A program made the translations under genes and the position numbers. The notes under the pieces are model-generated. The model was not told where the DNA came from, did not search any database, and saw only the letters and a program-made list of their open reading frames with translations. From positions 1-50,147 of the forward strand of contig JAYOTF010000024.1 in the NCBI GenBank assembly GCA_038150265.1: a DNA stretch of 50,147 bases, read 5' to 3'. Source of the stretch: Deltaproteobacteria bacterium (lineage in GTDB: Bacteria; SAR324; NAC60-12). This document shows positions 4,103 through 18,935 of the stretch, piece by piece. Numbering within the stretch: the first letter of the stretch is position 1; each line of letters opens with the position of its first letter.

Positions 4103-4737
4103 ATATTGACCCGCTTGCCTTGATCCGCGACAACCTGGCTGTCTTGCGACTTCACCAGCCCGCCCATCTCGCGGATCATCTCAAACACGCCAAACATCAG
4201 CGTCTCCTTGCCGTTTTCCTCCATCATCTCGGCAAACGACCGGTGGATGCTCTCTGTCGACTCCATCAGCTGCGCAAACTCTGGTTGCTTCAGCAGCTCG
4301 AAGGCCCGCAGGTAGTGTTCCTCGTCGCCCATCAGGTCCTCCAGCTTGCCGCCGAGGTCCGACAGCTCGTCGAGCTTCAGGTTCTGATACTCCGGAAGCG
4401 CCTCAATCTGCTTGCGGGCAGCGCTGTTGAGTTCCTCAATCCGGCGATCAATTGTGGCCCCCAGCTGTTCGGCCGCCTCACCTGAGAGCCCACCACGTCG
4501 AGCCACGTTCTCGTAGCTGGAGATGACCATGCCGTAGGAACGGCGCACCGTCATCGTCGCGTGATGACTGCTCGCCGGGCGAATGTTGTTCAGTTCCGGG
4601 TTCGGCGGCATTTTTTGCTGCCCAATCTGAGGAGCCATGTCCTTCAGGTCGGGCTGCCCTCCGCCTTCCTTCGTTTTGGCCGATTCCGCCTCGTTCCGGC
4701 TAGGAGGGGCAGAGTTGGGAGAAGCTGTAATTTTCAT
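4093..4737 (-). CDS. Hypothetical protein (214 aa, helical, acidic)
   Basis: ATG preceded by GAGGA, host-like codon usage, fills the gap between fbp and pfaA; ends in GKRVNIQA. No family recognised with confidence. Confidence 0.75.
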
Positions 4738-4853
4738 GAATCCTCGTCACAAACAAAATACCAAGTACGCGTTTTGGTCTGACTCTGGCAATACAAGATC
4801 CTAGCCATCCCGAATTCAGGTCCTCCCTGAAGCCTGCGGGATCGCGGAAAAAC

Positions 4854-4881
4854 TTGCACCCCTACCGGTTTGCTTTAGCAT
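4854..4881 (+). promoter_or_regulatory. Possible sigma70 promoter of the pfa operon
   Basis: TTGCAC-N16-TAGCAT in an AT-richer patch ~75 nt upstream of ATG 4956. Confidence 0.25.
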
Positions 4882-4955
4882 AAATTGTTTTTGGCCGTCT
4901 CCTCTTTCAGACACAGGCCACAGGCATTCTGGTGCATAGGAACTGTTCCAAGCTC

Positions 4956-7900
4956 ATGAAATCAGACACAAATCGACGCCTCCACGAAACCCCAATCGCC
5001 GTTGTCGGCATCTCCGCCCTGTTTCCGGAAGCCCCCGACCTCGAAAAATACTGGGACAACATCGTCCGCAAAGTGGACGCCATCACAGAGATCCCAGCGG
5101 ACCGCTGGAACGTCGATGACTACTACGACCGTGACAAAAGCGCTCCCGACAAGACCTACAGCCGTCGCGGAGGCTTCCTCCCTGAGGTCGACTTCGACCC
5201 CATGGACTTCGGCATCCCCCCCAACCTGCTGGAACAGACGGACTCTTCCCAGCTTTTGGGACTGCTCGTGGCGCGAGATGCCCTGGAAGACGCGGGTTAC
5301 GCCGACGCCTCGGAAGCCATCCGCGACCGCACCGGCGTGATCCTCGGCGTCACCGCCGGCATGAAGCTCCTGGGCTCCCTGACGGCCCGACTCCAGTACC
5401 CCGTCTGGGAAAAGGTCCTGCGGCAGTCCGGACTGAACGAAGCCGATACTGCGACGGTTATTGAAAAGATCAAAGCCGCCTACGTCCGCTGGGAAGAAGC
5501 GTCCTTCCCCGGACTCCTGGGCAACGTCATCTCCGGACGCATCGCCAACCGCCTTGACCTCGGTGGCACCAACTGCACCGTCGATGCCGCCTGTGGCAGC
5601 TCCCTGGCCGCCGTCAAAATGGCCGTGAGCGACCTCGTTGAGGGACGTGCCGACATGATGATCACGGGAGGAGTCGACACCGACAACTCCCCCTTCATGT
5701 ACATGTGCTTCAGCAAAACCCCAGCGTTTACCACCGAAGACCGCGTCCAGCCCTTTGACGAAAACTCCAAGGGCATCATGATCGGAGAAGGCCTCGGCAT
5801 GGTCGTGCTCAAGCGCCTTGAAGATGCTGAACGCGACGGCGATCACGTCTACGCGGTCATCAAGGGGCTGGGTTCCTCCAGCGACGGACGCTTCAAGAGC
5901 ATCTACGCCCCTCGAGCGGCCGGACAGGCCAAGTGCCTGCGTCGCGCCCATGAAGACGCGGGGGTCCATGCCTCCACCGTCACCCTCGTGGAAGCCCACG
6001 GCACCGGAACCAAGGCCGGCGATGCCACCGAATTCGACGGCCTGCAAACCGTTTACAGCGAAGCAGAAACCCCGCTCCAGAGCATCGCCATCGGCAGCGT
6101 CAAGTCTCAGATTGCTCACACCAAAGCCACTGCCGGAGCGGCGGGTCTCATCAAGGTTGCGCTGGCTCTGCACCACAAGGTGCTGCCCCCCATCATCAAC
6201 CTGGAAACGCCCAACCCGAACCTGAAGGTCGAGGAAACGCCTCTTTACCTCAACTCGGAAACTCGCCCCTGGATCACGGACGGCACTCCCCGACGCGCAG
6301 GCGTCAGTGCCTTTGGTTTTGGCGGCACCAACTTCCACTTCATCCTCGAAGAGCACCAGGCCCTTCACAAGGGGCCCTACCGCCTGCACCAAACGCCTCA
6401 GACGCTCCTGTTCGCCGCCGAGACTCCGGAGGCCCTCAAGCAAAAGATTGCCGCAGCCGCAGAGGCGCTCTCAGGTGAGCAGGCCCACACCACCTTTGTG
6501 GAGCAGGTCCAGCAGTCCCGGAACCCACTTCAGCCCACTCATGCTCGCCTGGGACTCGTCGCCGAGTCGGCTGACGAAGCAAGTGCAGCCTTGAAATCGG
6601 CTCTCGAGACCTTTGAGAAGAAAGCCGATGCGACCTCCTGGAGCGTCAAGGGGGTGACCTACCGGCAGTCCGGAATGGACCCCAAGGGCAAGGTCGTTGC
6701 GCTCTTCTCCGGACAAGGCTCCCAGTACCTCAACATGGGCCGAGAGCTGTTCACCAACTTCCCGCCTCCGCTTGAGGTCTATGGTCAACTCGACCGGCTG
6801 TTCAGCGAGTCCCAACAAAAACCGCTGTCGCAGATCGTCTTCCCGCCCCCGGCGTTCACCCCAGACACCCAGGCAGCGCAAGACGCCCAGTTGCAACTGA
6901 CTCAACACGCGCAACCCGGAATCGGAGGCGTCAGCGCCGGCCTCTTCAAGATCCTGACTGACGCTGGCTTCCAGCCGGACTTCACTGCCGGACACAGCTT
7001 TGGCGAACTCACGGCCCTGTGGGCCGCCGGCGTGTTCTCTGAAGCGGATTACTGCAAGCTCGCGTTTGCCCGGGGTCAGGCCATGAAGGCTCCGGAAGAC
7101 CCGAACTTTGAAGCAGGGACCATGATGGCCGTCATGGGCAAACTGGACCAGCTTGAAGACGACCTGAAGGCGTTTCCGGAAGTCGTCATGGCCAACCTGA
7201 ACTCTCCGAAGCAGGTGGTCGTTGCCGGTCCAACAGCCGCGGTCCAGGAGGCTCACGCGGCGCTCAAGGAGAAGAAGTACAACGCCGTCCTCCTCCCGGT
7301 TTCCGCCGCTTTCCACACCAAACTGGTGGGCCACGCGCAGAAGCCGTTTGCCGAAGCCATCCGCTCCGTCAAGTTCAACAAGCCCAGGGTTCCGGTTTAC
7401 TCAAATGCCACTTCCGAGGCGTACCCGAGCGATCCCAAGGCCATCCAGAAACGCCTTGAGGAGCACATCCTCAACTCGGTCCGGTTCCGGGAAGAGATTG
7501 AAAACATTCATGCGGCCGGCGGTCGCATCTTTGTTGAGTTTGGTCCCAAGAATGTGCTGACCAAGCTTGTTGAAGCCATCCTCGGTGGCCAGGAATTTAC
7601 GGCAATTGCTCTCAACGAGAACCCCAAGAAAGACAGCGATCGCCTGTTCCGTCAGGCGGTCACGGACCTGATGGTCCTCGGGCTTCCGCTTCAGGGCTAC
7701 GACCCTTATCCCTGGGAACGCCCCAAGCCCACCCGCAAACGGTCTCCGTTGACGCTGAAAATGACCGGCGCCAACTACGTCAGTGACGCGACTCGCAAGC
7801 GCTTCCAGGATGCCCTGAATGACGGCTTCCAGCTGTCTTCCGGAGGCTCCGGATCGTCCGGAAGCAATGGGCCATCAGGCTCGTCCGGTGGAACTCGTCC

Positions 7901-9458
7901 TGCCGTTGAGGCCCCGAAGCCTCAGCCGGTGGCACCACCGCAAGCCGCCCAGCCGAAAACCACATCGACACCAGCAAAACCGGCTCAGCCGGTCACTCCA
8001 CCTCCGCAAAAAACGATGAGCAACACCACCTCCTCTACAAGTGTCTCGGACCTGTATTACCAGCAACAGGCCACCCTGGCGGTTCATCAGCAGTACCTTC
8101 AGCAACAAGGCGAGTACTCTCGGACGGTTCTGCAGTTGCTCCAGCAACAGCTTCAGCTGGCTTCACAGGGCCAGACCATTCCGGATACCGTCGCCCAAAG
8201 CATGCAGTGGTTCCACGCTCACCAGGGAGAGACCCTGAAGGTCCACGAATTGTACCTGACTCAGCAGGCCGAACAGATGCGCACCCTCGCGGGCAGCGCT
8301 CCTGTCGTGGCGGCTCCCGCACTGGCTCCCGCTCCCGTCGCGGCGCCGGTTCCTCCAGCCAGGCCAGCCCCGAGCTTCACGCCTCCCGTGGCGCCTCCGA
8401 CTCCGGTCGCACCTCCTGTTGCGGCAGCACCTGCCGTTCCTCAGGCCGCCCCTGCCCAACCGGCTCCGGCAGCCCCTCAGGCGGCTCCTGTGCAACCGGC
8501 TCCTGCTGTTTCTCAGCCGGCACCGGCAGCCCCTGCCGCCACTCCCGTTGACGCCAACGCGGTTCTGCTGGACATCGTTGCCGACAAAACCGGTTACCCC
8601 AAGGAAATGCTGGAGCCCGAAATGGACCTCGAAGCCGACCTGGGCATTGACTCCATCAAGCGCGTTGAAATCCTCGGAACCGTTCAGGATCGCCTCCCGG
8701 ACATTCCCGGAATCCGCGGTGATGAAATGGGAGAGCTGCGCACCCTCGGACAGATCCAGGAATACCTCCAGGCCAAGGCTCCGGCAGCTGCAGCCCCAAG
8801 CCCTGCCGCATCTCCGGAACCGGCGGCTCCTCAAGCGGCTCCAGCCCCCCAACCGGCTGCCGCCTCGAATGCCGCAGACCCGGCTGAAGCCCTCCTTGCG
8901 GTCATCAGCGAAAAAACCGGCTACCCGGTGAACATGCTGGAAATGAGCATGGAACTGGAAGCGGACCTCGGAGTCGACTCCATCAAGCGCGTCGAGATCA
9001 TGTGGGCCATCCAGGAAAAATTCCCGCAGCTTCCGCAGCTGGACAACCAGGCCCTCGCAGAAATGCGTAGCCTCGGACAGATTGCCGATCACCTGAGCAC
9101 CCTGCTTCCGGCCACCAATGGGCACGCTCCCGTCAGTGACGCGCCGGCTTCATCGGTCATCAGTGCTGCTACCGTTGAAGACTCCCTGCTCACGGTCATC
9201 AGTGAAAAAACCGGCTACCCCAAGGAAATGCTGGAGCTGTCCATGGACCTCGAAGCCGACCTCGGGGTCGACTCCATCAAGCGCGTCGAGATCATGTGGG
9301 CCATCCAGGAAAAGCTTCCGGGCCTTCAGGAAGTCAACACCGGCGACCTGGGCGAGCTCCGGACCTTGCAGCAAATTGCCGACAAACTGGCCGCACACCT
9401 GCCCACTGCTCCGGTCGCCACCAGTGACCCTGCATCAGAGGTAAAAAAAAACTCCTGA
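4956..9458 (+). CDS. pfaA: PUFA-synthase-type polyketide synthase PfaA, N-terminal part (KS-MAT-ACP-ACP-ACP), 1500 aa
   Basis: KS: PIAVVG, VDAACGSS, EAHGTGT, GSVKSQIAHTK, SAFGFGGTN; AT: FSGQGSQY, GHSFGE, VSAAFHT; three ACPs DLG(I/V)DSIKRVEI separated by Pro/Ala linkers. ATG 4956 preferred over GTG 4932. Ends EVKKNS* just after an A9 run. Confidence 0.95.
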   Translation: MKSDTNRRLHETPIAVVGISALFPEAPDLEKYWDNIVRKVDAITEIPADRWNVDDYYDRDKSAPDKTYSRRGGFLPEVDFDPMDFGIPPNLLEQTDSSQLLGLLVARDALEDAGYADASEAIRDRTGVILGVTAGMKLLGSLTARLQYPVWEKVLRQSGLNEADTATVIEKIKAAYVRWEEASFPGLLGNVISGRIANRLDLGGTNCTVDAACGSSLAAVKMAVSDLVEGRADMMITGGVDTDNSPFMYMCFSKTPAFTTEDRVQPFDENSKGIMIGEGLGMVVLKRLEDAERDGDHVYAVIKGLGSSSDGRFKSIYAPRAAGQAKCLRRAHEDAGVHASTVTLVEAHGTGTKAGDATEFDGLQTVYSEAETPLQSIAIGSVKSQIAHTKATAGAAGLIKVALALHHKVLPPIINLETPNPNLKVEETPLYLNSETRPWITDGTPRRAGVSAFGFGGTNFHFILEEHQALHKGPYRLHQTPQTLLFAAETPEALKQKIAAAAEALSGEQAHTTFVEQVQQSRNPLQPTHARLGLVAESADEASAALKSALETFEKKADATSWSVKGVTYRQSGMDPKGKVVALFSGQGSQYLNMGRELFTNFPPPLEVYGQLDRLFSESQQKPLSQIVFPPPAFTPDTQAAQDAQLQLTQHAQPGIGGVSAGLFKILTDAGFQPDFTAGHSFGELTALWAAGVFSEADYCKLAFARGQAMKAPEDPNFEAGTMMAVMGKLDQLEDDLKAFPEVVMANLNSPKQVVVAGPTAAVQEAHAALKEKKYNAVLLPVSAAFHTKLVGHAQKPFAEAIRSVKFNKPRVPVYSNATSEAYPSDPKAIQKRLEEHILNSVRFREEIENIHAAGGRIFVEFGPKNVLTKLVEAILGGQEFTAIALNENPKKDSDRLFRQAVTDLMVLGLPLQGYDPYPWERPKPTRKRSPLTLKMTGANYVSDATRKRFQDALNDGFQLSSGGSGSSGSNGPSGSSGGTRPAVEAPKPQPVAPPQAAQPKTTSTPAKPAQPVTPPPQKTMSNTTSSTSVSDLYYQQQATLAVHQQYLQQQGEYSRTVLQLLQQQLQLASQGQTIPDTVAQSMQWFHAHQGETLKVHELYLTQQAEQMRTLAGSAPVVAAPALAPAPVAAPVPPARPAPSFTPPVAPPTPVAPPVAAAPAVPQAAPAQPAPAAPQAAPVQPAPAVSQPAPAAPAATPVDANAVLLDIVADKTGYPKEMLEPEMDLEADLGIDSIKRVEILGTVQDRLPDIPGIRGDEMGELRTLGQIQEYLQAKAPAAAAPSPAASPEPAAPQAAPAPQPAAASNAADPAEALLAVISEKTGYPVNMLEMSMELEADLGVDSIKRVEIMWAIQEKFPQLPQLDNQALAEMRSLGQIADHLSTLLPATNGHAPVSDAPASSVISAATVEDSLLTVISEKTGYPKEMLELSMDLEADLGVDSIKRVEIMWAIQEKLPGLQEVNTGDLGELRTLQQIADKLAAHLPTAPVATSDPASEVKKNS
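8973..9313 (+). repeat. 47-bp exact direct repeat shared by ACP2 and ACP3 coding sequences
   Basis: GTCGACTCCATCAAGCGCGTCGAGATCATGTGGGCCATCCAGGAAAA at 8973-9019 and 9267-9313. Confidence 0.9.
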
Positions 9459-9479
9459 GTGAGCCGGCGCCCTACTCGG
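9443..9479 (+). other. Candidate -1 recoding signal (A9 slippery run plus 3' hairpin) joining the two pfaA parts
   Basis: GTA AAA AAA AAC TCC TGA in frame 0 (A run 9443-9451); the -1 frame is open from 9428 to 11884; stem CUGAGU(G)AG 9455-9463 / CUACUCGG 9472-9479 follows. Confidence 0.6.
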
Positions 9480-11884
9480 TTACGGTCGGTCGCCCGCAAC
9501 TTCAGCCCCTTCCGCCTCCAGATCGTCTGGAGGACGCCCTTCCTGCGTCCGGATCGTACCTGATTCTGGACAACGGTTCTGCTTGTGCCGCCCAGCTTCT
9601 GGACACCCTGACCGAGCAGGGAGGCACCCTCTTTCTGCTCCGCCTTCCCGGAGTTGCCGCCTCCCGTCGCAAATCGGCCCGGAAAGCCTCCACCGCTTCA
9701 CTGCCTGATGCCTCTGAAGCCTCCCTTCAGAACGCCCTCGCGGCCCTCAAGCTGACTCAACTGGACGGCGTCTTCCTCTTTTTGCCAGCTACCGAAGCCT
9801 CATTGCGTCTGAGCAGCGCCACCGGACAGGCGCTTCAGATCAGCTTCTTGCTGGCCAAAGCGGTCAGCCCCCTGCTCACTCAGGCTCCCCGGGCCTCATT
9901 CCTGGCGGTGACGCAACTGGATGGCGCCTTGGGAACCCGCTCTCCGCAAGGCTGGATGGACCGAGGCGTGACGGGATTGACCAAGACCCTTTCACGCGAG
10001 TGGCCGCACCGCTTCTGCCGCACCGTCGATCTTTCTCCAGAGCTGTCTCCGGAACAAGCCACCCAGCACCTCCTCGCGGAAGCACAGGACCCAGACCGAC
10101 GCCTCCTGGAAGCCGGCTGGAGCCCCTCCGGACGCGTGGGCCTGTTGCCCGGAGCCCTTGAAAGCCCACAGCCTCCACTCACGCTTCCGGAGCACCCGGT
10201 CTGGCTCGTCAGTGGTGGCGCCCGTGGAGTCACCGCGGACTGCACCCTTGCACTGGCCGAGCGAGCCCCGGGAACCTTCTTGCTGGTGGGGCGGTCTCCG
10301 CTTCAGGAGGAACCGGCCTGGGCCTCGGGACTCACCGCTGAGGCTGAACTGCGGCAAGCGGCCATGAAGGCGCTCACCGACTCCGGAGAAAAGCCTACTC
10401 CGCCCAAACTCCGGCAGATGATGGCTCGGGTTGAAGCCAACCGTGCCATCCGGAAGACGCTGGATCAGCTGCAGGCGCTCGGCAGCACGGGCCACTACCT
10501 CAGCGCTGATGCCACCAATGCCGAGCAGCTCAAGGCAGCCCTGGCTCCGGTGCTTCAGCAATCCGGACCCGTCACCGGGGTCATTCATGGCGCAGGTGTT
10601 TTGGCAGACAAGCTGATCGAGAAAAAAACCGAGGCAGACTTCCAATCCGTCGTGGGGACCAAGGTCGAAGGCCTGAACGCCCTTTTGGAAGCCGTCGAGC
10701 CGAGCCGCCTGAGCCACCTCCTCCTCTTCTCATCAGGAGCCGGATTCTACGGAAATGCCGGGCAGTCCGACTATTCCATGGGCAACGAAATCCTCAACCG
10801 CGCGGCCCTTGTCTTTCAGCAGGAGCACCCGACCTGTCAGGTCATTTCCTACAACTGGGGTCCATGGGAAGGGGGCATGGTCACTCCGGAGCTAAAGCGC
10901 ATGTTTGAAGAGCGCGGGGTCGAGGTCATTCCCGTTACAGAAGGCGCCCGCATTTTTGCCGATGCCGCCCTGCAGCAGCCTGCCGGACTGCCCATCTTGC
11001 TGGTGGGGAACGCGCTCTCCGGCGATTCGGAACCACCCGCGCCGCTTCAGCAACGCATCTGGCGTCAGGTGACTCCGGAACTCAACCCTGGGCTCAACGA
11101 CCACCGCATCGGTGCCCACAACGTGGTCCCAGCCGTCTTGGCACTGGAATGGATGGTGGACGCCGTCGCCGCCTGCATTCCGGGCTACCACCTGCAACGC
11201 TGCACCGACTTCAAGGTGCTGAAGGGCATCCTCTTCGATGAAGACCTTGCCCCCGCCTACCTGCTGGACATTCAGGAAGCAGACGCCCCTGCAGCAGGCA
11301 CCCGGACCTTCCACCTCAAGGTGTCCAGCCACACCGGCAAGCTGCCGCGCTACCACTACAGCGTCACCTGCACCTTCAGCCAGACGCCTCCGGACGTTCC
11401 ACAGGAAGCCCTTCCCCGCGTCGATCAGGCTCAACCCGGAAGCCACTTCTACGAAAATGGCACCCTCTTCCACGGGCCCCTGTTTCAAGCGGTCCAGGAC
11501 GTCACTCGGCTCACCGAGCAGCAGCTGGTTGCTCGGTGTCAGGCGCCCGCGGTGCCTCCGGAGGCTCAGGGGCAGTTCCCGGTGGGACCGGTCAACGCCT
11601 ATGCCCTCGACCCGGCGTTTCAGGTCATGCTCATCTGGGCCCGGCACTTCCAGGGTGCCGGCAGCCTGCCGTTGCAGTTTGAGCAGCTCGAGTGCTTCCG
11701 GCCCCTGCCTTTTGAAACGGAGTTCCTGATCGACCTGAAGGTCCGGAGCGCCTCCGAAACACAGCTGCAGGCCGACTTGACCCTGCTTGCGCCAGATGGA
11801 GCCGTCTATGCTCGCATGCGTGGCGCTCAGGTGACCCTGAGCCCGAACCTGAATGCGCTCTTTCAGCCCCACTCTGCCCATTAA
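9443..11884 (+). CDS. pfaA: PfaA C-terminal part (KR structural + catalytic subdomains and PKS-type DH), in the -1 frame relative to 4956..9458
   Basis: KR: LVSGGARGVT, VIHGAGVLADKLIEKK, FSSGAGFYGNAGQSDYSMGNE, WGPWEGGMVT; DH: LNDHRIGAHNVVP, FYENGTLFHGPLFQ. The frame extends 118 codons upstream of the ORF-track TTG (9782) with PfaA-like sequence and no ATG/GTG/TTG. Confidence 0.9.
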   Translation, partial: KKKLLSEPAPYSVTVGRPQLQPLPPPDRLEDALPASGSYLILDNGSACAAQLLDTLTEQGGTLFLLRLPGVAASRRKSARKASTASLPDASEASLQNALAALKLTQLDGVFLFLPATEASLRLSSATGQALQISFLLAKAVSPLLTQAPRASFLAVTQLDGALGTRSPQGWMDRGVTGLTKTLSREWPHRFCRTVDLSPELSPEQATQHLLAEAQDPDRRLLEAGWSPSGRVGLLPGALESPQPPLTLPEHPVWLVSGGARGVTADCTLALAERAPGTFLLVGRSPLQEEPAWASGLTAEAELRQAAMKALTDSGEKPTPPKLRQMMARVEANRAIRKTLDQLQALGSTGHYLSADATNAEQLKAALAPVLQQSGPVTGVIHGAGVLADKLIEKKTEADFQSVVGTKVEGLNALLEAVEPSRLSHLLLFSSGAGFYGNAGQSDYSMGNEILNRAALVFQQEHPTCQVISYNWGPWEGGMVTPELKRMFEERGVEVIPVTEGARIFADAALQQPAGLPILLVGNALSGDSEPPAPLQQRIWRQVTPELNPGLNDHRIGAHNVVPAVLALEWMVDAVAACIPGYHLQRCTDFKVLKGILFDEDLAPAYLLDIQEADAPAAGTRTFHLKVSSHTGKLPRYHYSVTCTFSQTPPDVPQEALPRVDQAQPGSHFYENGTLFHGPLFQAVQDVTRLTEQQLVARCQAPAVPPEAQGQFPVGPVNAYALDPAFQVMLIWARHFQGAGSLPLQFEQLECFRPLPFETEFLIDLKVRSASETQLQADLTLLAPDGAVYARMRGAQVTLSPNLNALFQPHSAH

Positions 11885-11909: not shown

Positions 11910-14900
11910 ATGCCTGAACCCATTGCCGTTGTTGGCCTTTCGTGCCTGTTCCCTGGAGCCCACACTCCGGAAGCCTTCTGGAAGAACCTCCTGGCTGGAG
12001 CCGACTCGCGCTCCGCGGTTACCGAACAGCAGCTTCATGTGGCGCCCTCTCGGTTCTTGACCGACCGCAAGGGCGTGGTCGATCGCTACTACTGCGCTCA
12101 GGGGGGCTACCTGCACGACTTCCACTTCAATCCGGAAGGGTTTCAGCTCCCCGCTGCCCAGCTGCAGGGCCTCGATGATGTCTATCAGTGGCCTCTGCAC
12201 GTCGCTCGTGAAGCCCTGCGGGACGCGCAGTTGCTCGACCGTCCGGAGCTGCTGAAGCACTGCGGGATCATTCTCGGGAACCTCTCCTTCCCGACCAAGT
12301 CCTCGAACCACCAGGCGCTTCCGCTCTATCAGGAAGCCTGGGAGCCGCTGCTGCAACGCCTGCTCAATCGCTCCGACTTCCACCTCCAGAACTTCGGAAC
12401 CGACCCCTCAGGGCGCCTCCAACCGGGTCCGGACGCGCTGGAAATTGCCGGGCGCCCAGCGTCTCTGATTGCTCAGGCACTCGGACTCTCCGGACGCGCC
12501 TACGCGCTTGATGCGGCGTGTGCGTCGTCGCTCTACAGCGTCGGACTGGCCTGCCACACCCTGTGGACGCATCAGACCGATGTCATGCTCGCCGGAGCAG
12601 TCAGCGCTGCCGACCCGTTCTTTGTCAACATGGGGTTTTCCATCTTTCAGGCCTATCCGGAATCCGGAGGCAGCCACCCCCTCGACAAAAATTCAGGGGG
12701 CCTCTTTGCCAGCGAAGGCGCCGGCATGTTTGTCCTGAGGCGCCTCTCGGACGCACAGCGGGAGGGCAACCCCATCCATGCCCTCATCTCTGGTGTCGGC
12801 CTCTCGAACGACGGACGCGGGCAGTTTGTCCTCAGCCCCAACCCCAAAGGCCAGCGGCTCGCTTTTGAACGCGCCTATGCCACATCCGGGATCGACCCGC
12901 AGGCGACGGATTACATCGAATGCCACGCCACTGGTACTCCGCTGGGAGACAAGGTTGAGCTCAACTCCATGGAAGCCTTTTTTGGCAACCGTGGCAGCAC
13001 TCCCCCCATCGGATCCGTCAAGTCCAACCTGGGCCACATGCTCACAGCCGCCGGAATGGGCGGGATGACCAAGGTCATCCTCTCCCTTCAGCACGGACAG
13101 ATTCCTGGCACCATCGGAGTCGACGACCCGCTGGTTTCTGAAAAGGGGCTCTTTGGCGGAGACCGAACCCTCCGGAGCCTCACCCGCTGGCCACACGAAC
13201 GCTCGCCCCGAACCGCTGCCGTCAGCGCCTTTGGCTTTGGTGGCTGCAACGCGCACCTGATTCTGCAAAACACTGCCGAAGCCCCTTCAGAGGCCCCAGC
13301 GCCCACGCCGCTGCCTCCGCTTGCGGTGCTGGGAATGGATGCCATCTTCGGCGACCGCAATGGCCTCAGCGCCATGGAACACGCCTTTCTGGAGGGCGAA
13401 ACGGCCTTCCGGAGCCTCCCGGAAACTCGGTGGCGGGGACTCGGGCATCCGGAGGCGGGGCTTTCGGGCGCCTGGCTGGAATCCTTTGAGATGGACTTCC
13501 TCCGCTTCCGGCTGCCTCCGAATCCCCAGGAACGCCTCATTCCCCAACAGCTGCTGACGCTTGAAGTCGCCGACCGCGCCATCCGGCAGACGCCCCTGAA
13601 GGAAGGCCAAAATGTCGCGGTGCTGGTCGCCATGGAAGCCGAACTGGAGCTGCACCGCTTCCGGGGACGCGTCAACCTGGCCACGCAGTTGGAAGACAGC
13701 CTGGCAGCGTCCGGAATTGTGCTTTCCGACGAGCAACGTCAGGAGCTGGAAGCCGTTGCCAAGGATGCGCTGCTGGAAGCGGTGCCGGTCAATCGCTTCA
13801 CCAGCTTCATTGGAAACATCATGGCCTCGCGCATCAGCGCGCTTTGGGACTTCACCGGCCCGGCCCTGACCGTTTCTTCAGAAGAGACCTCGGTCTTCAA
13901 GGCCCTTGAAGTGGCGCAGATGCTGCTGGGTTCCGGAAGTGTCGACGCCGTCGTGGTGGCAGCCGTCGACCTGGCCGGAAGCGCCGAGTCGGTGACCCTT
14001 CGGAGCAAGGCCTTTCCCCTGCAGTCCGGAAGCCCGCGCTGGCCTCAGGAAGCCGGTGGCGCAGGCTGGATCCCCGGAGAGGGGGCAGGCGCCCTGGTTC
14101 TCACCACACAGGAGCAGGCTCCAGACGCCACTCCGCTTGCCCTGATTGAGGCCGTCGCCTTTGCTTCCGGAACACAAGGCGATGCCGTCCGCCAAGCTGC
14201 TCAGGCAGCACTCGCAGCCGCTCAGGCTCGTCCGGAAGACATTGGCTTGCTCACCCTGCAGGCAGCAGGGCTCGATGCCCGCGATGCGGCTGAGTGGGAA
14301 GGCCTGCAGGCCCTCTATCCGGAAGCGGCGCTTGGGGGTCCGTCTGCGCACTTCGGACACAGCTTTGCCGCCTCGGGAATGGTTTCGTTGCTGGAAGCCC
14401 TGATCGCCGTCCGGTCCCGGACCCTCCCAGCCCTCCCCAACTGGGAAGCGCCCAAAGGGGACGGATCCGCTTCTGGCCTGTACGTTCCCCCTGAATCGCG
14501 TCCGTGGTTCCGGAATGCTGATGCTCCGGCTCGGCGTGCAGCCGTCAGCAGCCTGGGACAGGAGACCGCACACGCCATCATCAGTGAAGCGCCTTCTGCG
14601 GCGGCGGCTCCGGAAGCCGTCCCCTCGGCCAATACCGGGGGGCTCTTCCTCCTTCCCGTCACGGCTCCGGATGCGGCTCAACTGCTGGAGCGCCTCAAGG
14701 CTCTGCAGGAGCTGCTGCACCACCAGACCCCGCTTCCGGAGCTGGCTCGCCAGACGTTCGAGGCGCAGCAACAGGCATCCGGAGGCCTGGGGGTCGCCCT
14801 GCTGGGCAGGACCCATGAGGAGCTGCTTCAGGAGCTGACCTCCGCCCAGGCCGGCATTCCACAAGCCGTTGCGTCCGGAAAGGACTGGGTCACTCCGCGC

Positions 14901-17900
14901 GGAAGTAGCTTCTCCCCCGCCCCCCTTGGGCTGGCAGGCAAAGTGGCCTTCACCTACCCCGGAGGCTTCAACAGCTACCTCGGCAACAGCCGAACCGCCT
15001 TCCGCCTCATGCCGGAGCTGCACGAGTCCATGGCGTCGCACACCACCCGCCTGGGGGCCGCTCTGCACGACCGTCGGCTCTACCCACGGACCCAGCAACG
15101 CCTCAGTGAAGCCGAGCTGCAGCAGGCGCAGGAAGACTTCATCAACACGCCCATTGCGATGTTTGAAAGCGGCATCACCACCGGTGTCCTCCACACCAAG
15201 CTGATGCGCGAAGGCTTTGGCCTGCAACCCGACCTGGCGTTTGGGTACAGCATGGGCGAGGTGACGATGATGTTTGCCCTCGGCGTGTGGGGGTCGATGG
15301 ATCCGATGTCTGACCTGCTGGACGCCTCTCCGCTCTTCAAGGAGCGGCTCTGTGGTCCCATGAACACCGTCCGCGAGGCCTGGAAGCTGGCCCCAGAGGA
15401 ACGACGGGGCGAGCCCATCTGGCACTGGTACACCCTCCGAGCCACTCCGGAGGCAACCCGCAAGGCCCTGGAAGCCGAGGAGCGCGCCTACCTCATCCTG
15501 ATCAATACGCCTCAGGAAGTGGTCCTGGCCGGAGACGCCGAGGCCTGCGAGCGGGTGGCCCAGACGCTTGGGGTCGAGCCACACCCGATTCAGGTGACCG
15601 ACGTGGTGCACTGTGCTCCGGTCCAGGCCGACTACGACGAAGTGAAGCACGTCCACACGCACCCGGTGGTGGGACAGCCTCCTCTTGATTTCTACTCGGC
15701 CCTGAATTACCGCCCCACGGAGCTGGACTCCGACACCATCGGTCACAACATTGCGCAGATTTATGGCCGCACCGTGGACTACACGCGGCTCATTGAAAAC
15801 ACCTACGCAGATGGTGCCCGGATCTTTGTGGACCTCGGCCCACGCGTTAGCTGTGCCAAGTGGATCAGCGAAACCCTGGGGGAACGCCCGCACCTCGCCG
15901 TCGGGGTCAGCCGCCGAGGCGTCGATGACCGCACCCAGGTGCTCCGGACGCTGGCACGTCTGTTCAGCCACCGGGTCCCGCTCAATCTGGAACGCCTCGC
16001 GCCGCCGGTTCCGGAACGTCCAACCCGAGAGCTGCGCCAGACCATCGTCTTGGGAGGTGCGCCGCTCCAGAGCATCGACACCCCTGAAAACCGAGCCCGC
16101 TTTGCGGCACCAGCTGCTGTTGCAGCCGCTCCTGTTTCCCCGGAACCCCCGGCTTCTCCGGAACCTCAACCCCCTGTAATGCCCATGCCTCCGGCTGCTG
16201 ACACTCCGGCGCCCCCGACTTCTGTTCCTGCTGCTTCTCCAGCCCCGGTTCCGGATGGCTGGTGGGGAGATTACCCAGGCCGTCTGGGTCAGGCCCACGC
16301 CGCGTTTCTGCAATTCCGACAAGAGGGCATGCGGCAAATGGCCTCCCTGATTCTGCAGCAAATGGGGGGTGTCTTCTCGGCACCAGAACCCGTCCTCACG
16401 CGGGTGCCTCCGCAGCCAGCAGCATCAGGCCCCGTGGCGTTCGACAGCCAGGCGCTGCAGCAACAGGCCGCCGCTCAACCAGCCCCCCCGGAGGCAAACG
16501 GTCCGAAGCCTCCGGGCGTGCTCTTCGATCATCAGGACCTGCTGGAGTTTGCTGGCGGACAGATTGCCAATGTCTTTGGGCTCGAGTATGCGGAGATTGA
16601 CACCTTCCGGCGCTGCGTCCGGTTGCCGCTGGATCCGTACCTGCTGGTCAGTCGGGTCACCAAGCTGGATGCCAAGCTCGGGGAGTTCAAGCCCTCCACG
16701 ATTACCACCGAATACGACATTCCGCAAAAGGCCTGGTACTGCACGGATGGACAGATTCCGTGGGCCGTTGCCGTTGAGTCCGGGCAGTGCGACCTGATGC
16801 TCATCAGCTTCCTCGGGATTGATTTCGAATGCCGGGGCGACCGGGTGTATCGGCTGCTCGACTGCACCCTGACTTACCTCGAAGACATGCCTCGCGAAGG
16901 GGAAACCCTCCGCTATGACATCTTCATTGATTCCTTTGCCCGGAATGGTGGAACGCTCCTGTTCTTCTTCCACTACGAATGCTTTGTTGGCGACCGCATG
17001 GTGATGCGCATGGATGGGGGCTGTGCCGGTTTCTTCACCGATGAAGAGCTGGCGGTCGGCAACGGCGTCATCCGGACCCAGAAGGAGCTGGACGCCCGGC
17101 ATGAAGCAACCAAGCTCTACTTTGAGCCCCTGCTGCACTGCTCCAAGACGCAGTTCCGGCGCGAAGAGCTCCTCGCGCTCTCCACCGGGCATCCGGAGGT
17201 GTGCTTTGGACCGCATTACGCGCAGCCCGGAAGGAACCCTTCGCTGAAGACCGCTCCGGAGCAGTTCCTCATGCACGATCGCATCACGCTGGTGGATCGC
17301 ACCGGTGGCGACTGGGGCTGTGGACTCGTGCTCTCGGAAAAGGACCTGGCGCCCGACCACTGGTACTTCCCCTGCCACTTCAAGGATGACCCTGTGCTCG
17401 CAGGCTCGCTCATGGCAGAAGGCTGTGTGCAGCTCATGCAGTTCTTCATGCTCGACCTTGGCCTGCAGACCCGGACTCAGGATGCGACCTTCCAGCCGAT
17501 CCACGGCATGTCCCAGATCGTCCGCTGCCGGGGCCAGGTCATCCCCGGAGACACACTCCTGACCTACCGCATGGAGGTCCGGGAAATTGGCCTCGACCCA
17601 ATCCCGTATGCGATTGCGGATGTTGACATTTTGCTGGGAGACAAGATCGTGGTGGACTTCCGGAACCTCGGGGTGCAGCTGGTCGAAAAGGGCAGCACCT
17701 TCCGCCTGACGCAGGAGTGGTTTGACACGCATCCGGAACGCCCGGCGCTTCAGTCCACTCAGGCGAATGCTCCTCAGGTGCCCCAACCCTCAGCCGAGGA
17801 GACCGGTTGGGTCGCTGATGATCAGCAGATGTGGGAGTTTGCCCTGGGGGAGGTGGCCAAGTGCATGGGGCCCGATTACGCGGTTTATCACAACCGCCCC

Positions 17901-18935
17901 GTACAGCGAAACCCCAACGGCGACCTGCAGCTGCTCTCCCGCGTCCGGAGCTTCTCGGGCACACGCTTCAAGTACGATGAGCCGATGCGCATCGTCGGTG
18001 AATACGATGTCCCTGCAGACGCCTGGTACTTCCGAGACAACGCCCACCCGGCCCAGATGCCCTACTCGGTGCTGATGGAAATTGCGCTTCAGCCCTGCGG
18101 CTTCATCTCCGCATACTCGGGCGCCATGTTCCACTACCAGAGCCAGGACCTGCACTACCGGAACCTGGACGGCAACGGGACCCTCCTCGCGCTTCCCGAC
18201 CTGAGGGGCAAGACCATTGTCTCCGAAATCACGCTGAAGAGCACCGTCGCTTCCGGAAACACCGTGATCCAGACCCACGACTTCGCCCTCTCTGTTGACG
18301 GCGAGCGCTTCTATGAAGGCGACACGGTTTTCGGATACTTCACCGATGAAGCCCTCGCCAATCAGGTGGGGCTGGATGCAGGCGAAAAGAAGGCGCCCTG
18401 GGTGGAGGCTCATGCGCCAGAGGTGACTCTGGACCTCACGAAGGATGGCTCGTGGTTTCATGGAAAAGACGGGCGCCCCTTCCAGCGCCTCGGGTCCGGA
18501 CAGCTCAGCCTGCTGGATGAGCTCCGGATCAGTGCCAAGGGAGGGCTTCACGAGCAGGGCTACGTCTATGGCGTCCGGGAGGTCGACTCGGAAGACTGGT
18601 TCTTCCCCTACCACTTCCATCAGGACCCGGTGATGCCGGGCTCGCTGGGGGTGGAGGCAACCCTCGAGGCGATCCAGGGCTTTGCCCTCCAGCAGGGGCT
18701 GGCGGATCGTTTCCAGAACCCGCGCTTCAGCTGGAACCTCTCCCGAACGGCCTGGCGGTACCGTGGGCAGATCATTCCGGAAACCGGGAAGATGCAGCTG
18801 GAAGCCCACCTCAAGGAAATCCGGGAAGAGCTGGGCCAGACCGTTATCGTTGCCGACGGCTCTCTGTGGCGCGACGACCTGAGGATCTATGCCCTCACGG
18901 ACCTCGTCATCGAAATCCGGGAGTGCGGCCAGTAA
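11910..18935 (+). CDS. pfaBC: Fused PfaB/PfaC-type synthase subunit (KS-CLF-AT-pseudoDH/FabA-like DH x2)
   Basis: KS with LDAACASS, ECHATGT, SAFGFGGCN; second KS-fold lacking the catalytic Cys (SSEETS; chain-length factor); PfaB-type AT with GYSMGE; two FabA-like DH sites WYFPCHFKDDPVLAGSLMAEG and WFFPYHFHQDPVMPGSLGVEA. Confidence 0.93.
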   Translation: MPEPIAVVGLSCLFPGAHTPEAFWKNLLAGADSRSAVTEQQLHVAPSRFLTDRKGVVDRYYCAQGGYLHDFHFNPEGFQLPAAQLQGLDDVYQWPLHVAREALRDAQLLDRPELLKHCGIILGNLSFPTKSSNHQALPLYQEAWEPLLQRLLNRSDFHLQNFGTDPSGRLQPGPDALEIAGRPASLIAQALGLSGRAYALDAACASSLYSVGLACHTLWTHQTDVMLAGAVSAADPFFVNMGFSIFQAYPESGGSHPLDKNSGGLFASEGAGMFVLRRLSDAQREGNPIHALISGVGLSNDGRGQFVLSPNPKGQRLAFERAYATSGIDPQATDYIECHATGTPLGDKVELNSMEAFFGNRGSTPPIGSVKSNLGHMLTAAGMGGMTKVILSLQHGQIPGTIGVDDPLVSEKGLFGGDRTLRSLTRWPHERSPRTAAVSAFGFGGCNAHLILQNTAEAPSEAPAPTPLPPLAVLGMDAIFGDRNGLSAMEHAFLEGETAFRSLPETRWRGLGHPEAGLSGAWLESFEMDFLRFRLPPNPQERLIPQQLLTLEVADRAIRQTPLKEGQNVAVLVAMEAELELHRFRGRVNLATQLEDSLAASGIVLSDEQRQELEAVAKDALLEAVPVNRFTSFIGNIMASRISALWDFTGPALTVSSEETSVFKALEVAQMLLGSGSVDAVVVAAVDLAGSAESVTLRSKAFPLQSGSPRWPQEAGGAGWIPGEGAGALVLTTQEQAPDATPLALIEAVAFASGTQGDAVRQAAQAALAAAQARPEDIGLLTLQAAGLDARDAAEWEGLQALYPEAALGGPSAHFGHSFAASGMVSLLEALIAVRSRTLPALPNWEAPKGDGSASGLYVPPESRPWFRNADAPARRAAVSSLGQETAHAIISEAPSAAAAPEAVPSANTGGLFLLPVTAPDAAQLLERLKALQELLHHQTPLPELARQTFEAQQQASGGLGVALLGRTHEELLQELTSAQAGIPQAVASGKDWVTPRGSSFSPAPLGLAGKVAFTYPGGFNSYLGNSRTAFRLMPELHESMASHTTRLGAALHDRRLYPRTQQRLSEAELQQAQEDFINTPIAMFESGITTGVLHTKLMREGFGLQPDLAFGYSMGEVTMMFALGVWGSMDPMSDLLDASPLFKERLCGPMNTVREAWKLAPEERRGEPIWHWYTLRATPEATRKALEAEERAYLILINTPQEVVLAGDAEACERVAQTLGVEPHPIQVTDVVHCAPVQADYDEVKHVHTHPVVGQPPLDFYSALNYRPTELDSDTIGHNIAQIYGRTVDYTRLIENTYADGARIFVDLGPRVSCAKWISETLGERPHLAVGVSRRGVDDRTQVLRTLARLFSHRVPLNLERLAPPVPERPTRELRQTIVLGGAPLQSIDTPENRARFAAPAAVAAAPVSPEPPASPEPQPPVMPMPPAADTPAPPTSVPAASPAPVPDGWWGDYPGRLGQAHAAFLQFRQEGMRQMASLILQQMGGVFSAPEPVLTRVPPQPAASGPVAFDSQALQQQAAAQPAPPEANGPKPPGVLFDHQDLLEFAGGQIANVFGLEYAEIDTFRRCVRLPLDPYLLVSRVTKLDAKLGEFKPSTITTEYDIPQKAWYCTDGQIPWAVAVESGQCDLMLISFLGIDFECRGDRVYRLLDCTLTYLEDMPREGETLRYDIFIDSFARNGGTLLFFFHYECFVGDRMVMRMDGGCAGFFTDEELAVGNGVIRTQKELDARHEATKLYFEPLLHCSKTQFRREELLALSTGHPEVCFGPHYAQPGRNPSLKTAPEQFLMHDRITLVDRTGGDWGCGLVLSEKDLAPDHWYFPCHFKDDPVLAGSLMAEGCVQLMQFFMLDLGLQTRTQDATFQPIHGMSQIVRCRGQVIPGDTLLTYRMEVREIGLDPIPYAIADVDILLGDKIVVDFRNLGVQLVEKGSTFRLTQEWFDTHPERPALQSTQANAPQVPQPSAEETGWVADDQQMWEFALGEVAKCMGPDYAVYHNRPVQRNPNGDLQLLSRVRSFSGTRFKYDEPMRIVGEYDVPADAWYFRDNAHPAQMPYSVLMEIALQPCGFISAYSGAMFHYQSQDLHYRNLDGNGTLLALPDLRGKTIVSEITLKSTVASGNTVIQTHDFALSVDGERFYEGDTVFGYFTDEALANQVGLDAGEKKAPWVEAHAPEVTLDLTKDGSWFHGKDGRPFQRLGSGQLSLLDELRISAKGGLHEQGYVYGVREVDSEDWFFPYHFHQDPVMPGSLGVEATLEAIQGFALQQGLADRFQNPRFSWNLSRTAWRYRGQIIPETGKMQLEAHLKEIREELGQTVIVADGSLWRDDLRIYALTDLVIEIRECGQ

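What the first reader, a model, noticed from the sequence alone, without database searches (positions are those of the whole stretch)
9428..9782. Candidate programmed -1 frameshift (or transcriptional slippage) splitting PfaA exactly at the ACP/KR boundary
Seen: frame 0 reads GAG GTA AAA AAA AAC TCC TGA (A9 at 9443-9451, containing heptamers A_AAA_AAA and A_AAA_AAC). The -1 frame has a stop at 9425-9427 and is then open to 11884, so the crossover is confined to 9428-9458. It has no ATG/GTG/TTG for 118 codons, yet these encode ..LQPLPPPDRLEDAL..YLILDNG..LLRLP..ASEASL..LDGVFLFLP, which matches my recollection of the KR structural subdomain following the ACPs in single-chain PfaA. A hairpin (9455-9463/9472-9479) follows the run, and its loop could pair with 9483-9494 (possible pseudoknot). 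An A9 run with a GTA codon is atypical for this GC-rich gene. Known: X_XXY_YYZ plus 3' structure drives -1 PRF (dnaX, IS3 family); A9+ runs allow RNA polymerase slippage; cyanobacterial hglE and hglG encode KS-AT-ACP and KR-DH separately. Inference: one gene yields a 1500-aa KS-AT-ACP3 protein and a 2309-aa full PfaA at a set ratio, tuning ACP/KS to KR-DH stoichiometry. Alternatives: homopolymer sequencing error (true A10), phase variation, or re-initiation at CUG 9455 (CTGA overlap analogous to ATGA).
Basis: partly seen in the sequence, partly recalled or inferred. Interest (0 to 1): 0.88.

Follow-up and report, generated by a model that had tools for sequence, protein, structure and literature searches.

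The report
Conserved poly-A recoding site in PfaA
A run of nine A's that splits a large lipid-synthase gene in a SAR324-type marine bacterium is kept at the same spot in dozens of related genomes, so it is very probably a deliberate slippage site that lets one gene make both a short and a full-length enzyme.

Summary
An A9 run (9443-9451) ends a KS-AT-3xACP reading frame. The KR-DH half of PfaA continues in the -1 frame, with no ATG/GTG/TTG for 118 codons.

It is not an assembly error. Contigs from three other DNA runs and one RNA run span the run without an indel.

It is conserved. Of 50 genomes of the phylum with a homologue, the junction could be read in 46:
- 37 (10 genera, 2 families) have an A9-A11 run with KR-DH in the -1 frame.
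- 7 keep an A10-A12 run in frame.
- 2 are fused without a run.

Cyanobacterial homologues carry the same run in frame, at -1 or at +1. None of the 53 frame breaks lacks a run.

The run is the only fully conserved DNA at the junction, although synonymous sites are saturated. No downstream RNA structure is conserved. Both non-KR frames close within 1-13 codons of the run.

Best reading: a programmed recoding site that yields a carrier-only protein and a full-length PfaA. RNA-polymerase slippage is the most likely mechanism (0.55); a ribosomal -1 shift or sliding is not excluded (0.3). No experiment was possible.

I found no publication of this.

The parts
4932..9458 (+). 0-frame ORF: KS, AT and three ACP domains (N-terminal 'half' of PfaA). 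It is the default translation product, ending ...EVKKNS. The start is GTG 4932 or ATG 4956.
   Evidence: TIGR02813 positions 1-1495, 1819 bits
9443..9451 (+). A9 slippery run (holds A_AAA_AAA and A_AAA_AAC in the 0 frame). This is the proposed site of RNA-polymerase slippage or ribosomal -1 shift.
   Evidence: An A9-A12 run sits at the same linker in 44 of 46 readable genomes of the phylum. It is the only 100% conserved block in the 20-sequence alignment.
9425..9427 (+). Stop (TGA) closing the -1 frame just upstream. It confines the crossover to 9428-9458.
9456..9458 (+). 0-frame stop TGA, two codons after the run.
   Evidence: The ACP frame closes 1-5 codons after the run in all 32 distinct -1 junctions.
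9460..9462 (+). Stop (TGA) in the third frame, three codons after the run. Any non-productive slip therefore also ends at once.
   Evidence: the third frame closes within 2-6 codons in all -1 junctions.
9452..9781 (+). Start-less but conserved coding stretch of the -1 frame (N-terminal, structural part of the KR region).
   Evidence: dN/dS 0.15 against the closest relative, differences at codon positions 1, 2, 3 = 26, 18, 66; invariant P26, L40, G60; the PfaA model match starts at residue 40.
9428..11884 (+). -1 frame ORF: KR plus PS-DH (C-terminal 'half' of PfaA).
   Evidence: TIGR02813 positions 1754-2581
11910..18935 (+). Next gene of the cluster: KS, second KS-like region, PfaB-family acyltransferase region and two FabA dehydratase domains (PfaC/PfaB-like).

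Best explanation
The A9 run is a programmed recoding site inside a single pfaA-type gene. Standard expression ends two codons after the run and gives a carrier-only protein (KS-AT-ACP3, about 1500 aa). In a fraction of transcripts RNA polymerase slips on the A/T homopolymer and adds one A. The -1 frame then becomes continuous and a full-length KS-AT-ACP3-KR-DH protein is made (2317 aa from GTG 4932, 2309 from ATG 4956), with the junction ...EVKKK-LLSEPAPY.... Any other slip meets a stop within three codons. The tract thus sets a ratio between carrier-only and complete subunits. Shown here: the anatomy, its conservation, and purifying selection on the start-less stretch. Inferred: that slippage occurs, that it occurs at transcription, and that both products are used.
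For: (1) The split is real. Contigs of three other DNA runs (726, 829 and 366 nt, each with base differences from the window) and one RNA-run contig (151 nt) cross the run with 0 gaps.
(2) Conservation. 88 genomes of the phylum were searched and 50 have a KR-DH match at E<=1e-60. The junction is readable in 46. Of these, 37 have A9 (20), A10 (13) or A11 (4) with KR-DH in the -1 frame, 7 have an in-frame A10-A12, and 2 are fused without a run.
(3) Run lengths differ through flanking substitutions (GTA/GAA/CAA before the run, AAC/AAA at its end), while the -1 relation is kept down to 33% KR-DH identity.
(4) All 43 frame-broken loci counted (duplicates included) and the 10 further ones have a run of at least 9.
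(5) The run is never shorter than 9. That is the length at which selection against slippage-prone runs appears in many bacterial genomes (PMC1088944, abstract; 'An, n>7' for transcriptional realignment in PMC3711429, passage). A heptamer would suffice for a ribosomal -1 shift.
(6) No conserved RNA structure: RNAalifold gives 0 pairs on 20 sequences, and only the A columns are invariant.
(7) The same run occurs in frame (26 distinct junctions) and in the +1 frame (2 junctions). Both other frames close within 1-13 codons in all 60 distinct run-bearing junctions. This fits a device that makes a truncated and a complete form in any frame state.
(8) The start-less 104-107 codons are under purifying selection (dN/dS 0.15-0.8; dS 1.7 against the closest relative).
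(9) The in-frame homologue L015 reads V-K-K-K-A-L across its A10 run, matching the predicted junction V-K-K-K-L-L.
(10) The codons of the run are disfavoured in this genome.
(11) Precedent: tssM1 of Citrobacter rodentium, where an A11 run before a premature stop gives two length variants, both needed (PMC4256274, abstract).
Against: There is no direct evidence of heterogeneous mRNA or of a full-length protein. The only RNA-run record is one 151-nt contig with A9, and contigs drop rare variants. The comparative data do not separate RNA-polymerase slippage from ribosomal events on the same run: every run of 9 or more also holds A_AAA_AAA in phase, and IS1 frameshifts on A_AAA_AAC without a known stimulator (PMC4066793, passage). 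If slippage is inefficient, the KR-DH part would be strongly sub-stoichiometric, which is odd for an enzyme needed in every elongation cycle. One genome (G056, L114; 75% complete) has an extra in-frame TAA ten codons before the run, which would block a fusion there. Genomes are related, so the counts overstate independence.
Confidence: 0.55

Rival explanations
1. The same two products arise at translation. Either the ribosome makes a -1 shift on A_AAA_AAA / A_AAA_AAC, or it slides on the lysine-encoding poly-A stretch. The mRNA itself stays A9.
For: In-phase heptamers are present. IS1 uses A_AAA_AAC without an established stimulator (PMC4066793, passage). Ribosomes slide on homopolymeric A stretches (PMC4363877; title and start of abstract only). 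Conservation of the run, the close stops and the junction match fit this reading as well as they fit slippage at transcription.
Against: A heptamer would be enough, yet no run shorter than 9 is seen in any of the 53 frame-broken loci. There is no conserved downstream structure or upstream SD-like element. The base after the run is mostly C or T, not the G of the efficient bacterial A_AAA_AAG. Two Nostoc genes need the opposite (+1) shift on the same kind of run.
Confidence: 0.3
2. These are two separate genes. KR-DH is translated on its own by termination-reinitiation at a non-canonical codon (CUG overlapping the UGA, CTGA), perhaps helped by the A-rich stretch.
For: A CTG overlapping the 0-frame stop is present in 19 of 32 distinct -1 junctions, including the window. 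The two ORFs overlap by only 31 nt.
Against: 13 of 32 junctions have no such CTG, among them the closest relative (TTA in L004). Only 3 of 32 have any ATG/GTG/TTG between the upstream stop and 15 codons past the run; the first canonical start lies 8-110 codons downstream (median 38), inside conserved sequence. This reading does not explain why the run is kept in in-frame genes.
Confidence: 0.07
3. It is not a programmed feature: a homopolymer assembly error, a decaying pseudogene, or DNA-level phase variation of the A tract switching full-length PfaA on and off.
For: Homopolymers are error- and mutation-prone. The genome is an 87-contig draft. Both in-frame and -1 states occur within one family, so switches have happened over evolutionary time. 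One relative carries an extra stop (L114).
Against: Four independent contig sets keep A9 without an indel. 37 species-level genomes from many assemblies share the -1 state, and their run-length differences are due to substitutions. The downstream frame is under purifying selection and intact over about 800 codons in all of them.
Confidence: 0.05

Closest known systems
tssM1 of Citrobacter rodentium (and tssM3 of Yersinia pseudotuberculosis): transcriptional frameshifting on a poly-A tract (PMC4256274, abstract read)
   Same: A long A run (A11 there, A9-A11 here) lies just before a premature stop in a multidomain protein gene. The missing C-terminal domains lie in another frame. A short and a full-length variant would come from one gene.
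   Different: A different protein family and cell process. There, slippage, both products and the need for their ratio were shown by experiment; here all three are inferred. The site here is conserved across two phyla and in three frame states.
dnaX of Thermus thermophilus and other bacteria with poly-A runs (named in PMC3711429, passage read; details of the Thermus case are recalled)
   Same: A homopolymeric A run of 9-10 inside a gene yields a full-length and a C-terminally truncated product. Both split and continuous ORF arrangements with the same run occur among species.
   Different: dnaX encodes replication clamp-loader subunits. In E. coli the same outcome is reached by ribosomal -1 frameshifting on A_AAA_AAG with a stem-loop (recalled), for which no counterpart is seen here.
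IS1 insA-insB' -1 ribosomal frameshift on A_AAA_AAC (PMC4066793, passage read)
   Same: The same heptamer as at 9446-9452, with no established stimulatory structure and a fusion protein made from two overlapping frames.
   Different: A short motif (six A's; recalled) in a mobile element. The runs here are always 9 or longer and sit in a chromosomal biosynthetic gene.
   Same: The same domain boundary, the same kind of run, the same -1 relation and the same proposed reading. That note also says cyanobacterial heterocyst-glycolipid genes share it.
   Different: Another phylum and genome. I did not see the Microcystis locus itself. The cyanobacterial loci I examined agree with it, and the present work adds the SAR324-type lineages.
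Single-chain PfaA of marine Gammaproteobacteria (Colwellia, Psychromonas, Pseudoalteromonas loci)
   Same: The same domain order. The KR-DH part is 36-38% identical. The TIGR02813 model is matched collinearly.
   Different: These genes have one continuous ORF and no A run at the ACP/KR linker. 33 loci (duplicates included) are fused without a run, among them all 20 gammaproteobacterial PfaA loci of Colwellia, Psychromonas, Pseudoalteromonas and their allies where the linker was read.

Membership tests
PfaA-type (polyketide-like) secondary-lipid / PUFA synthase subunit | Domain order KS-AT-ACP(n)-KR-DH, matching the PfaA family model | tested here: met
   Pfam. TIGR02813: ORF0 matches positions 1-1495 at 1819 bits (cut-off 1010); the -1 ORF matches positions 1754-2581 at 552 bits.
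PfaA-type (polyketide-like) secondary-lipid / PUFA synthase subunit | One continuous reading frame for the whole subunit | tested here: not met
   The frame breaks at 9443-9458. It is continuous only after a -1 shift or one added A.
PfaA-type (polyketide-like) secondary-lipid / PUFA synthase subunit | Clustered with the other pfa genes (PfaC-type KS/CLF with FabA dehydratases, PfaB acyltransferase, PfaD enoyl reductase) | tested here: inconclusive
   A PfaC/PfaB-like gene follows at 11910-18935. No enoyl-reductase gene is adjacent. NMO-family matches lie on other contigs and were not examined further.
PfaA-type (polyketide-like) secondary-lipid / PUFA synthase subunit | Makes a long-chain polyunsaturated fatty acid | not testable with these tools
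   The product is unknown. The nearest relatives include cyanobacterial genes whose assignment to heterocyst-glycolipid synthesis is recalled, not tested.
Programmed transcriptional slippage (realignment) site | Homopolymeric A or T run of about 9 or more within the coding sequence | tested here: met
   A9 at 9443-9451. The threshold comes from PMC1088944 (abstract).
Programmed transcriptional slippage (realignment) site | The run is conserved at the nucleotide level among diverged homologues, and adding or removing one base restores the ORF | tested here: met
   44 of 46 readable genomes of the phylum keep a run. Only the A columns are invariant, at dS about 1.7.
Programmed transcriptional slippage (realignment) site | An mRNA population with extra or missing A's that is absent from the DNA | not testable with these tools
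   Only assembled contigs were available. One RNA-run contig shows A9, and contigs hide minor variants.
Programmed -1 ribosomal frameshift site | X_XXY_YYZ heptamer in the 0 frame within the overlap of the two ORFs | tested here: met
   A_AAA_AAA (9443-9449) and A_AAA_AAC (9446-9452).
Programmed -1 ribosomal frameshift site | A conserved stimulator: a downstream stem-loop or pseudoknot, or an upstream SD-like sequence | tested here: not met
   RNAalifold gives 0 pairs on 20 sequences. Single-sequence z-scores run from -4.1 to +1.0, and 5 of 20 are below -2. The GAGG before the run is not conserved. A stimulator is not obligatory (IS1).
Phase-variable (contingency) locus | Run length varies by indels between close strains or populations, giving on and off alleles | tested here: not met
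   Three other DNA runs with strain-level base differences keep A9. The -1 state is stable across 37 species-level genomes, and their length differences are due to substitutions.

The most novel reading that the evidence does not exclude
The poly-A tract is an old isoform switch, shared across phyla, that belongs to this whole clade of PfaA/HglE-like synthases. Whatever the frame state (-1, in frame, +1), it makes the cell produce both a carrier-only KS-AT-ACPn protein and a complete KS-AT-ACPn-KR-DH protein in a ratio fixed by run length. Both isoforms would be needed for the synthase to work, as with the two TssM forms.
Probability: 0.45. Interest if true: 0.8.

Novelty: new member of a known kind. 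Interest (0 to 1): 0.7.

Why it matters
Recoding by slippage on homopolymers is known mainly from mobile elements, dnaX and a few secretion genes. Here it would sit at a domain boundary of a large lipid megasynthase, and it is kept in two families of an abundant marine phylum and in cyanobacteria.

There are three practical consequences:
- Gene callers will start the KR-DH protein at an internal TTG/GTG, losing 8-110 conserved residues, or will flag a pseudogene.
- Heterologous expression of such clusters from annotated ORFs would lack a correct KR.
- The stoichiometry of carrier modules to reductase/dehydratase modules becomes an experimentally tunable variable through run length.

The site also offers a natural series of frame states (-1, 0, +1) for asking why two isoforms are kept.

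Tried and rejected
1. Hairpin/pseudoknot stimulator. Folding of the 70 nt after the run in 20 homologues, the alignment fold and the window fold (z -2.65, largely from a distal hairpin near 9513-9536) give no shared structure.

2. Rfam scan of 9200-9800: one chance-level match only (E 0.77).

3. CUG re-initiation is not conserved.

4. Sequencing error was rejected and on the comparative data.

5. Literature.
- No paper holds 'transcriptional slippage' together with 'polyunsaturated fatty acid synthase' (0 papers).
- For 'programmed frameshift' / 'polyketide synthase' / 'transcriptional slippage', I judged the 20 papers listed (of the 55 that hold at least two of the terms) by title and start of abstract. 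Of these I searched PMC3711429, PMC5009743 and PMC4066793 for terms; none reports this case.
- 'hglE' + 'frameshift' returned only unrelated human GLE1 papers.
- 'pfaA' + 'frameshift' returned nothing relevant. One paper names pfaA1A2 in Psychroflexus without comment on a frameshift.
- The heterocyst glycolipid / hglF / hglG search found 1 paper, which I did not open.
- The 'transcriptional realignment' + cyanobacteria search was uninformative.
- PMC5009743 has no mention of polyketide, polyunsaturated, acyl carrier or ketoreductase in the 300,000 of its 449,034 characters that are held.
- PMC3711429's main text has only a 'polyketide cyclase' cluster. Two of its supplementary files hold none of my terms, and file 1 could not be searched. 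A listing among its 146 clusters therefore cannot be excluded.

6. A third phylum. A search of 201 genomes of the order of the Crocinitomicaceae locus L099 found the gene only in that genome itself, and its contig ends before the junction.

7. Read laying gave contigs only, so it tests neither RNA heterogeneity nor expression level.

9. A look-up of earlier scan notes for look-alike stretches of 7800-11300 returned nothing.
Full report
**What is in the window.**

The sequence reads GTA AAA AAA AAC TCC TGA, with nine A's at 9443-9451 and the stop at 9456-9458. The frame that ends there runs from 4932 (GTG; an ATG lies at 4956) and encodes KS, AT and three ACP domains.

The -1 frame is closed by TGA at 9425-9427 and is then open for 818 codons, to 11884. 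It encodes a KR and a polyketide-type DH. Its first ATG, GTG or TTG is TTG at 9782, 118 codons in.

Against the NCBIfam model of single-chain PfaA (TIGR02813, 2582 positions), the first ORF covers positions 1-1495 and the second covers 1754-2581. The two are halves of one PfaA-type subunit, broken exactly between the last ACP and the KR region.

The next gene (11910-18935) is PfaC/PfaB-like.

**Is the run a chance event or an error?**

The genome is an 87-contig draft of 3.39 Mb with 61% G+C. It holds five A9/T9 runs and none longer. The other four lie where no frame is open for more than 208 codons.

In nine ORFs of the window, AAA is 46 of 187 lysine codons and GTA 2 of 464 valine codons. 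The run is therefore built from disfavoured codons.

Contigs from three other DNA runs cross the run without any gap: 726 nt, 829 nt and 366 nt, with 5, 4 and 1 base differences from the window. A 151-nt contig of an RNA library does the same. One of these DNA runs is from the same study as the run marked as a possible source; the other two are from two other studies. A9 is therefore the real DNA sequence in several samples.

**Relatives.**

Record titles of close loci name 'SAR324 cluster bacterium', 'Deltaproteobacteria bacterium' and 'Candidatus Lambdaproteobacteria' MAGs.

In the tool's phylum group, 88 genomes were searched and 50 have a KR-DH match at E<=1e-60:

| Family | Genomes with a match |
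|---|---|
| f1 (including the window's genome) | 34 of 45 |
| f7 | 16 of 19 |
| five other families | 0 of 24 |

I read the junction in 46 of the 50. In the other four (G003, G020, G058, G059) the contig ends first.

- **-1 state, 37 genomes.** The ACP frame ends 1-12 codons after an A run and the KR-DH frame is the -1 frame. Twenty-seven are in f1 and 10 in f7, in ten genera, with KR-DH identity to the window down to 33-35%. The run lengths are A9 in 20, A10 in 13 and A11 in 4.
- **In-frame state, 7 genomes.** The gene is continuous but the run is still there: A10 in G011, G081, G085 and G087, A11 in G083 and G084, and A12 in G082.
- **No run, 2 genomes.** G009 and G010 (two copies) are continuous without a run.
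- **Not examined.** Two distant second copies (31% identity, in G076 and G080).
- **Exception.** G056 (75% complete) has the run and the -1 relation, but also an in-frame TAA ten codons before the run.

**Beyond the phylum.**

The best 80 of 576 confirmed relatives in the species-genome collection were classified by script. The classification covered 113 loci with a KR-DH match (the 80 plus the G-handle loci, duplicates included) and gave:

| State | Loci |
|---|---|
| Fused, no run | 33 |
| A10, in frame | 27 |
| A9, -1 frame | 30 |
| A10, -1 frame | 8 |
| A11, -1 frame | 3 |
| A9, +1 frame | 2 |
| Junction not in the locus | 10 |

No frame break occurs without a run.

- Cyanobacterial loci with the -1 state: Calothrix sp. 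PCC 7103, and Xenococcus, Symploca, Rivularia and Nostoc sp. NMS4 MAGs.
- Cyanobacterial loci with the +1 state: Nostoc mirabile CHAB5784 and Nostoc sp. CHAB 5836.
- About two dozen Nostoc, Calothrix, Tolypothrix, Stigonema and related loci have GGT GAA AAA AAA AAG in frame.
- The gammaproteobacterial PfaA genes (Colwellia, Psychromonas, Pseudoalteromonas) have no run.

On a tree of the KR catalytic region (103 distinct rows, quick search, SH-aLRT only), run-bearing genes fall in several deep groups and the run-less ones mostly in two groups. I draw no order of events from it.

My cyanobacterial loci agree, but I did not see the Microcystis locus.

**What is conserved, and what is not.**

In an alignment of 20 junctions (15 nt before to 75 nt after the run), the only columns identical in all sequences are eight A's. 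RNAalifold predicts no pair at all.

Single-sequence folds of the 70 nt after the run give z-scores from -4.1 to +1.0; five of 20 are below -2, the window's is -0.7, and the shapes are unrelated. The window's 98 nt from the run fold with z -2.65, largely through a hairpin 60 nt downstream.

The 104-107 codons between the run and the window's first canonical start are under purifying selection in the -1 frame. Against the closest relative the figures are dN/dS 0.15, dS 1.7, and 26, 18 and 66 differences at codon positions 1, 2 and 3. Across fifteen pairs dN/dS is 0.15-0.80. Synonymous sites are therefore saturated, yet the run is untouched.

Run length differs through substitutions at the edges (GTA, GAA, CAA or CCA before the run; AAC or AAA at its end), not through indels, so the frame relation is preserved.

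In all 60 distinct run-bearing junctions, both frames other than the KR frame close within 1-13 codons after the run. In the window these stops are TGA 9456-9458 and TGA 9460-9462.

The continuous homologue L015 reads V-K-K-K-A-L over its A10 run. The window with one added A would read V-K-K-K-L-L.

**Mechanism.**

The data show a site under strong nucleotide-level selection whose only evident property is slipperiness. It is placed so that a -1 change of frame fuses the two halves, and any other change ends translation at once.

I take it as a programmed recoding site giving two products: a carrier-only KS-AT-ACP3 protein by default, and a full-length PfaA in a fraction of events.

*For slippage of RNA polymerase:*
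- The run is never shorter than 9 in 53 frame-broken loci, although a heptamer suffices for the ribosome. Nine is the length at which selection against such runs appears in many bacteria (PMC1088944, abstract; see also the passage of PMC3711429).
- No stimulator is conserved.
- The base after the run is not the G of the efficient bacterial heptamer.
- The same run serves genes that need +1, 0 or -1.

*For the ribosome:*
- The heptamers are in phase.
- IS1 shifts on A_AAA_AAC without a known stimulator (PMC4066793, passage).
- Ribosomes can slide on poly-A (PMC4363877; listing and start of abstract only).

These cannot be separated in silico. I put 0.55 on transcription and 0.3 on translation.

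**Rivals.**

Independent initiation at the CUG that overlaps the stop fits 19 of 32 distinct -1 junctions but not the other 13, among them the closest relative. Only 3 of 32 have any canonical start near the junction. It also leaves the in-frame runs unexplained.

Error, decay or phase variation are contradicted, by the stability of the -1 state across 37 species-level genomes, and by the intact, constrained downstream frame. Changes between frame states have nevertheless happened over long times within family f7 and in cyanobacteria.

**Comparison with what is known.**

- The closest described case is tssM1 of Citrobacter rodentium. There an A11 run before a premature stop makes RNA polymerase add A's, two length variants result, and both, and their ratio, are needed (PMC4256274, abstract).
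- dnaX genes with A9-A10 runs are the other close parallel (passage of PMC3711429; details of the Thermus case are recalled).
- The gene itself is a PfaA-type synthase subunit by domain order and family model. Its product is unknown, and an enoyl-reductase gene is not adjacent.

**Novelty.**

I found no paper describing slippage or frameshifting in pfaA, hglE or PUFA-type synthases. Two limits apply: one supplementary file of PMC3711429 could not be searched, and only two thirds of the large review PMC5009743 is held.

One paper names pfaA1 and pfaA2 as separate genes in Psychroflexus (figure legend). I could not check whether that split is the same site.

The mechanism is a known kind. Its use at a domain boundary of a lipid megasynthase, conserved across phyla and in three frame states, appears new. 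The scan itself had already met it once on other DNA.

**Verdict.**

Nothing here shows that the long protein is made; that needs RNA reads, proteomics or reporters.

Noticed in passing
G000 contigs C2:80191-80199 (T9), C2:93121-93129 (A9), C13:18591-18599 (T9), C40:29703-29711 (A9): These are the only other 9-nt A/T runs of the genome. None lies between or inside long open frames (longest open stretch 208 codons), so they look intergenic. The pfaA run is the only one inside long ORFs.
   Followed up: partly
L114 (G056), about 1469-1471 in the gene's orientation: This relative has the A9 run and the -1 relation, but also an in-frame TAA (GAA in its congeners L019/L020) ten codons before the run. 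It is a real nonsense change or an error in a 75%-complete, 650-contig genome.
   Followed up: no
L066 (Tolypothrix tenuis PCC 7101) 2424-2433, 3205, 3395-5128: In Nostocales-type loci the ORF with the in-frame A10 goes on for about 257 codons (KR N-terminal region) and stops. The KR-catalytic plus DH part is a separate gene with its own ATG 190 nt later. The KR region is thus split at a second, ordinary gene boundary there.
   Followed up: partly
L075 (Nostoc mirabile CHAB5784) and L094 (Nostoc sp. CHAB 5836), run at 2428-2436: An A9 run with the downstream part in the +1 frame (GCT AAA AAA AAA TGC ... TGA). The same N. mirabile genome also holds a paralogue with an in-frame A10 (L096).
   Followed up: partly
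window 11910-18935 (+): The 2341-aa downstream protein joins KS, a second KS-like region, a PfaB-family region (TIGR02816, residues 989-1362; 128.8 bits, below the family's 144.3-bit cut-off) and two FabA domains. It looks like PfaC with a PfaB-like acyltransferase fused in.
   Followed up: no
window 3-2777 (-): A 925-codon open frame running off the window's start has no Pfam or NCBIfam match at E<=1e-5.
   Followed up: no
L102 (contig titled 'uncultured Acetobacteraceae bacterium' MAG): Its KR region sits inside a tight Nostoc group on the tree and has the Nostoc-type in-frame A10 junction. The contig is probably a cyanobacterial one binned into the wrong MAG.
   Followed up: no
PMC3914696, legend of figure 7; L099/L140 (Crocinitomicaceae MAG): Psychroflexus torquis and two other Flavobacteriia are drawn with pfaA1 and pfaA2 as separate genes. 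Whether that split carries the same A run is open. The one Bacteroidota locus I had ends before the junction, and 200 further genomes of its order gave no match.
   Followed up: partly
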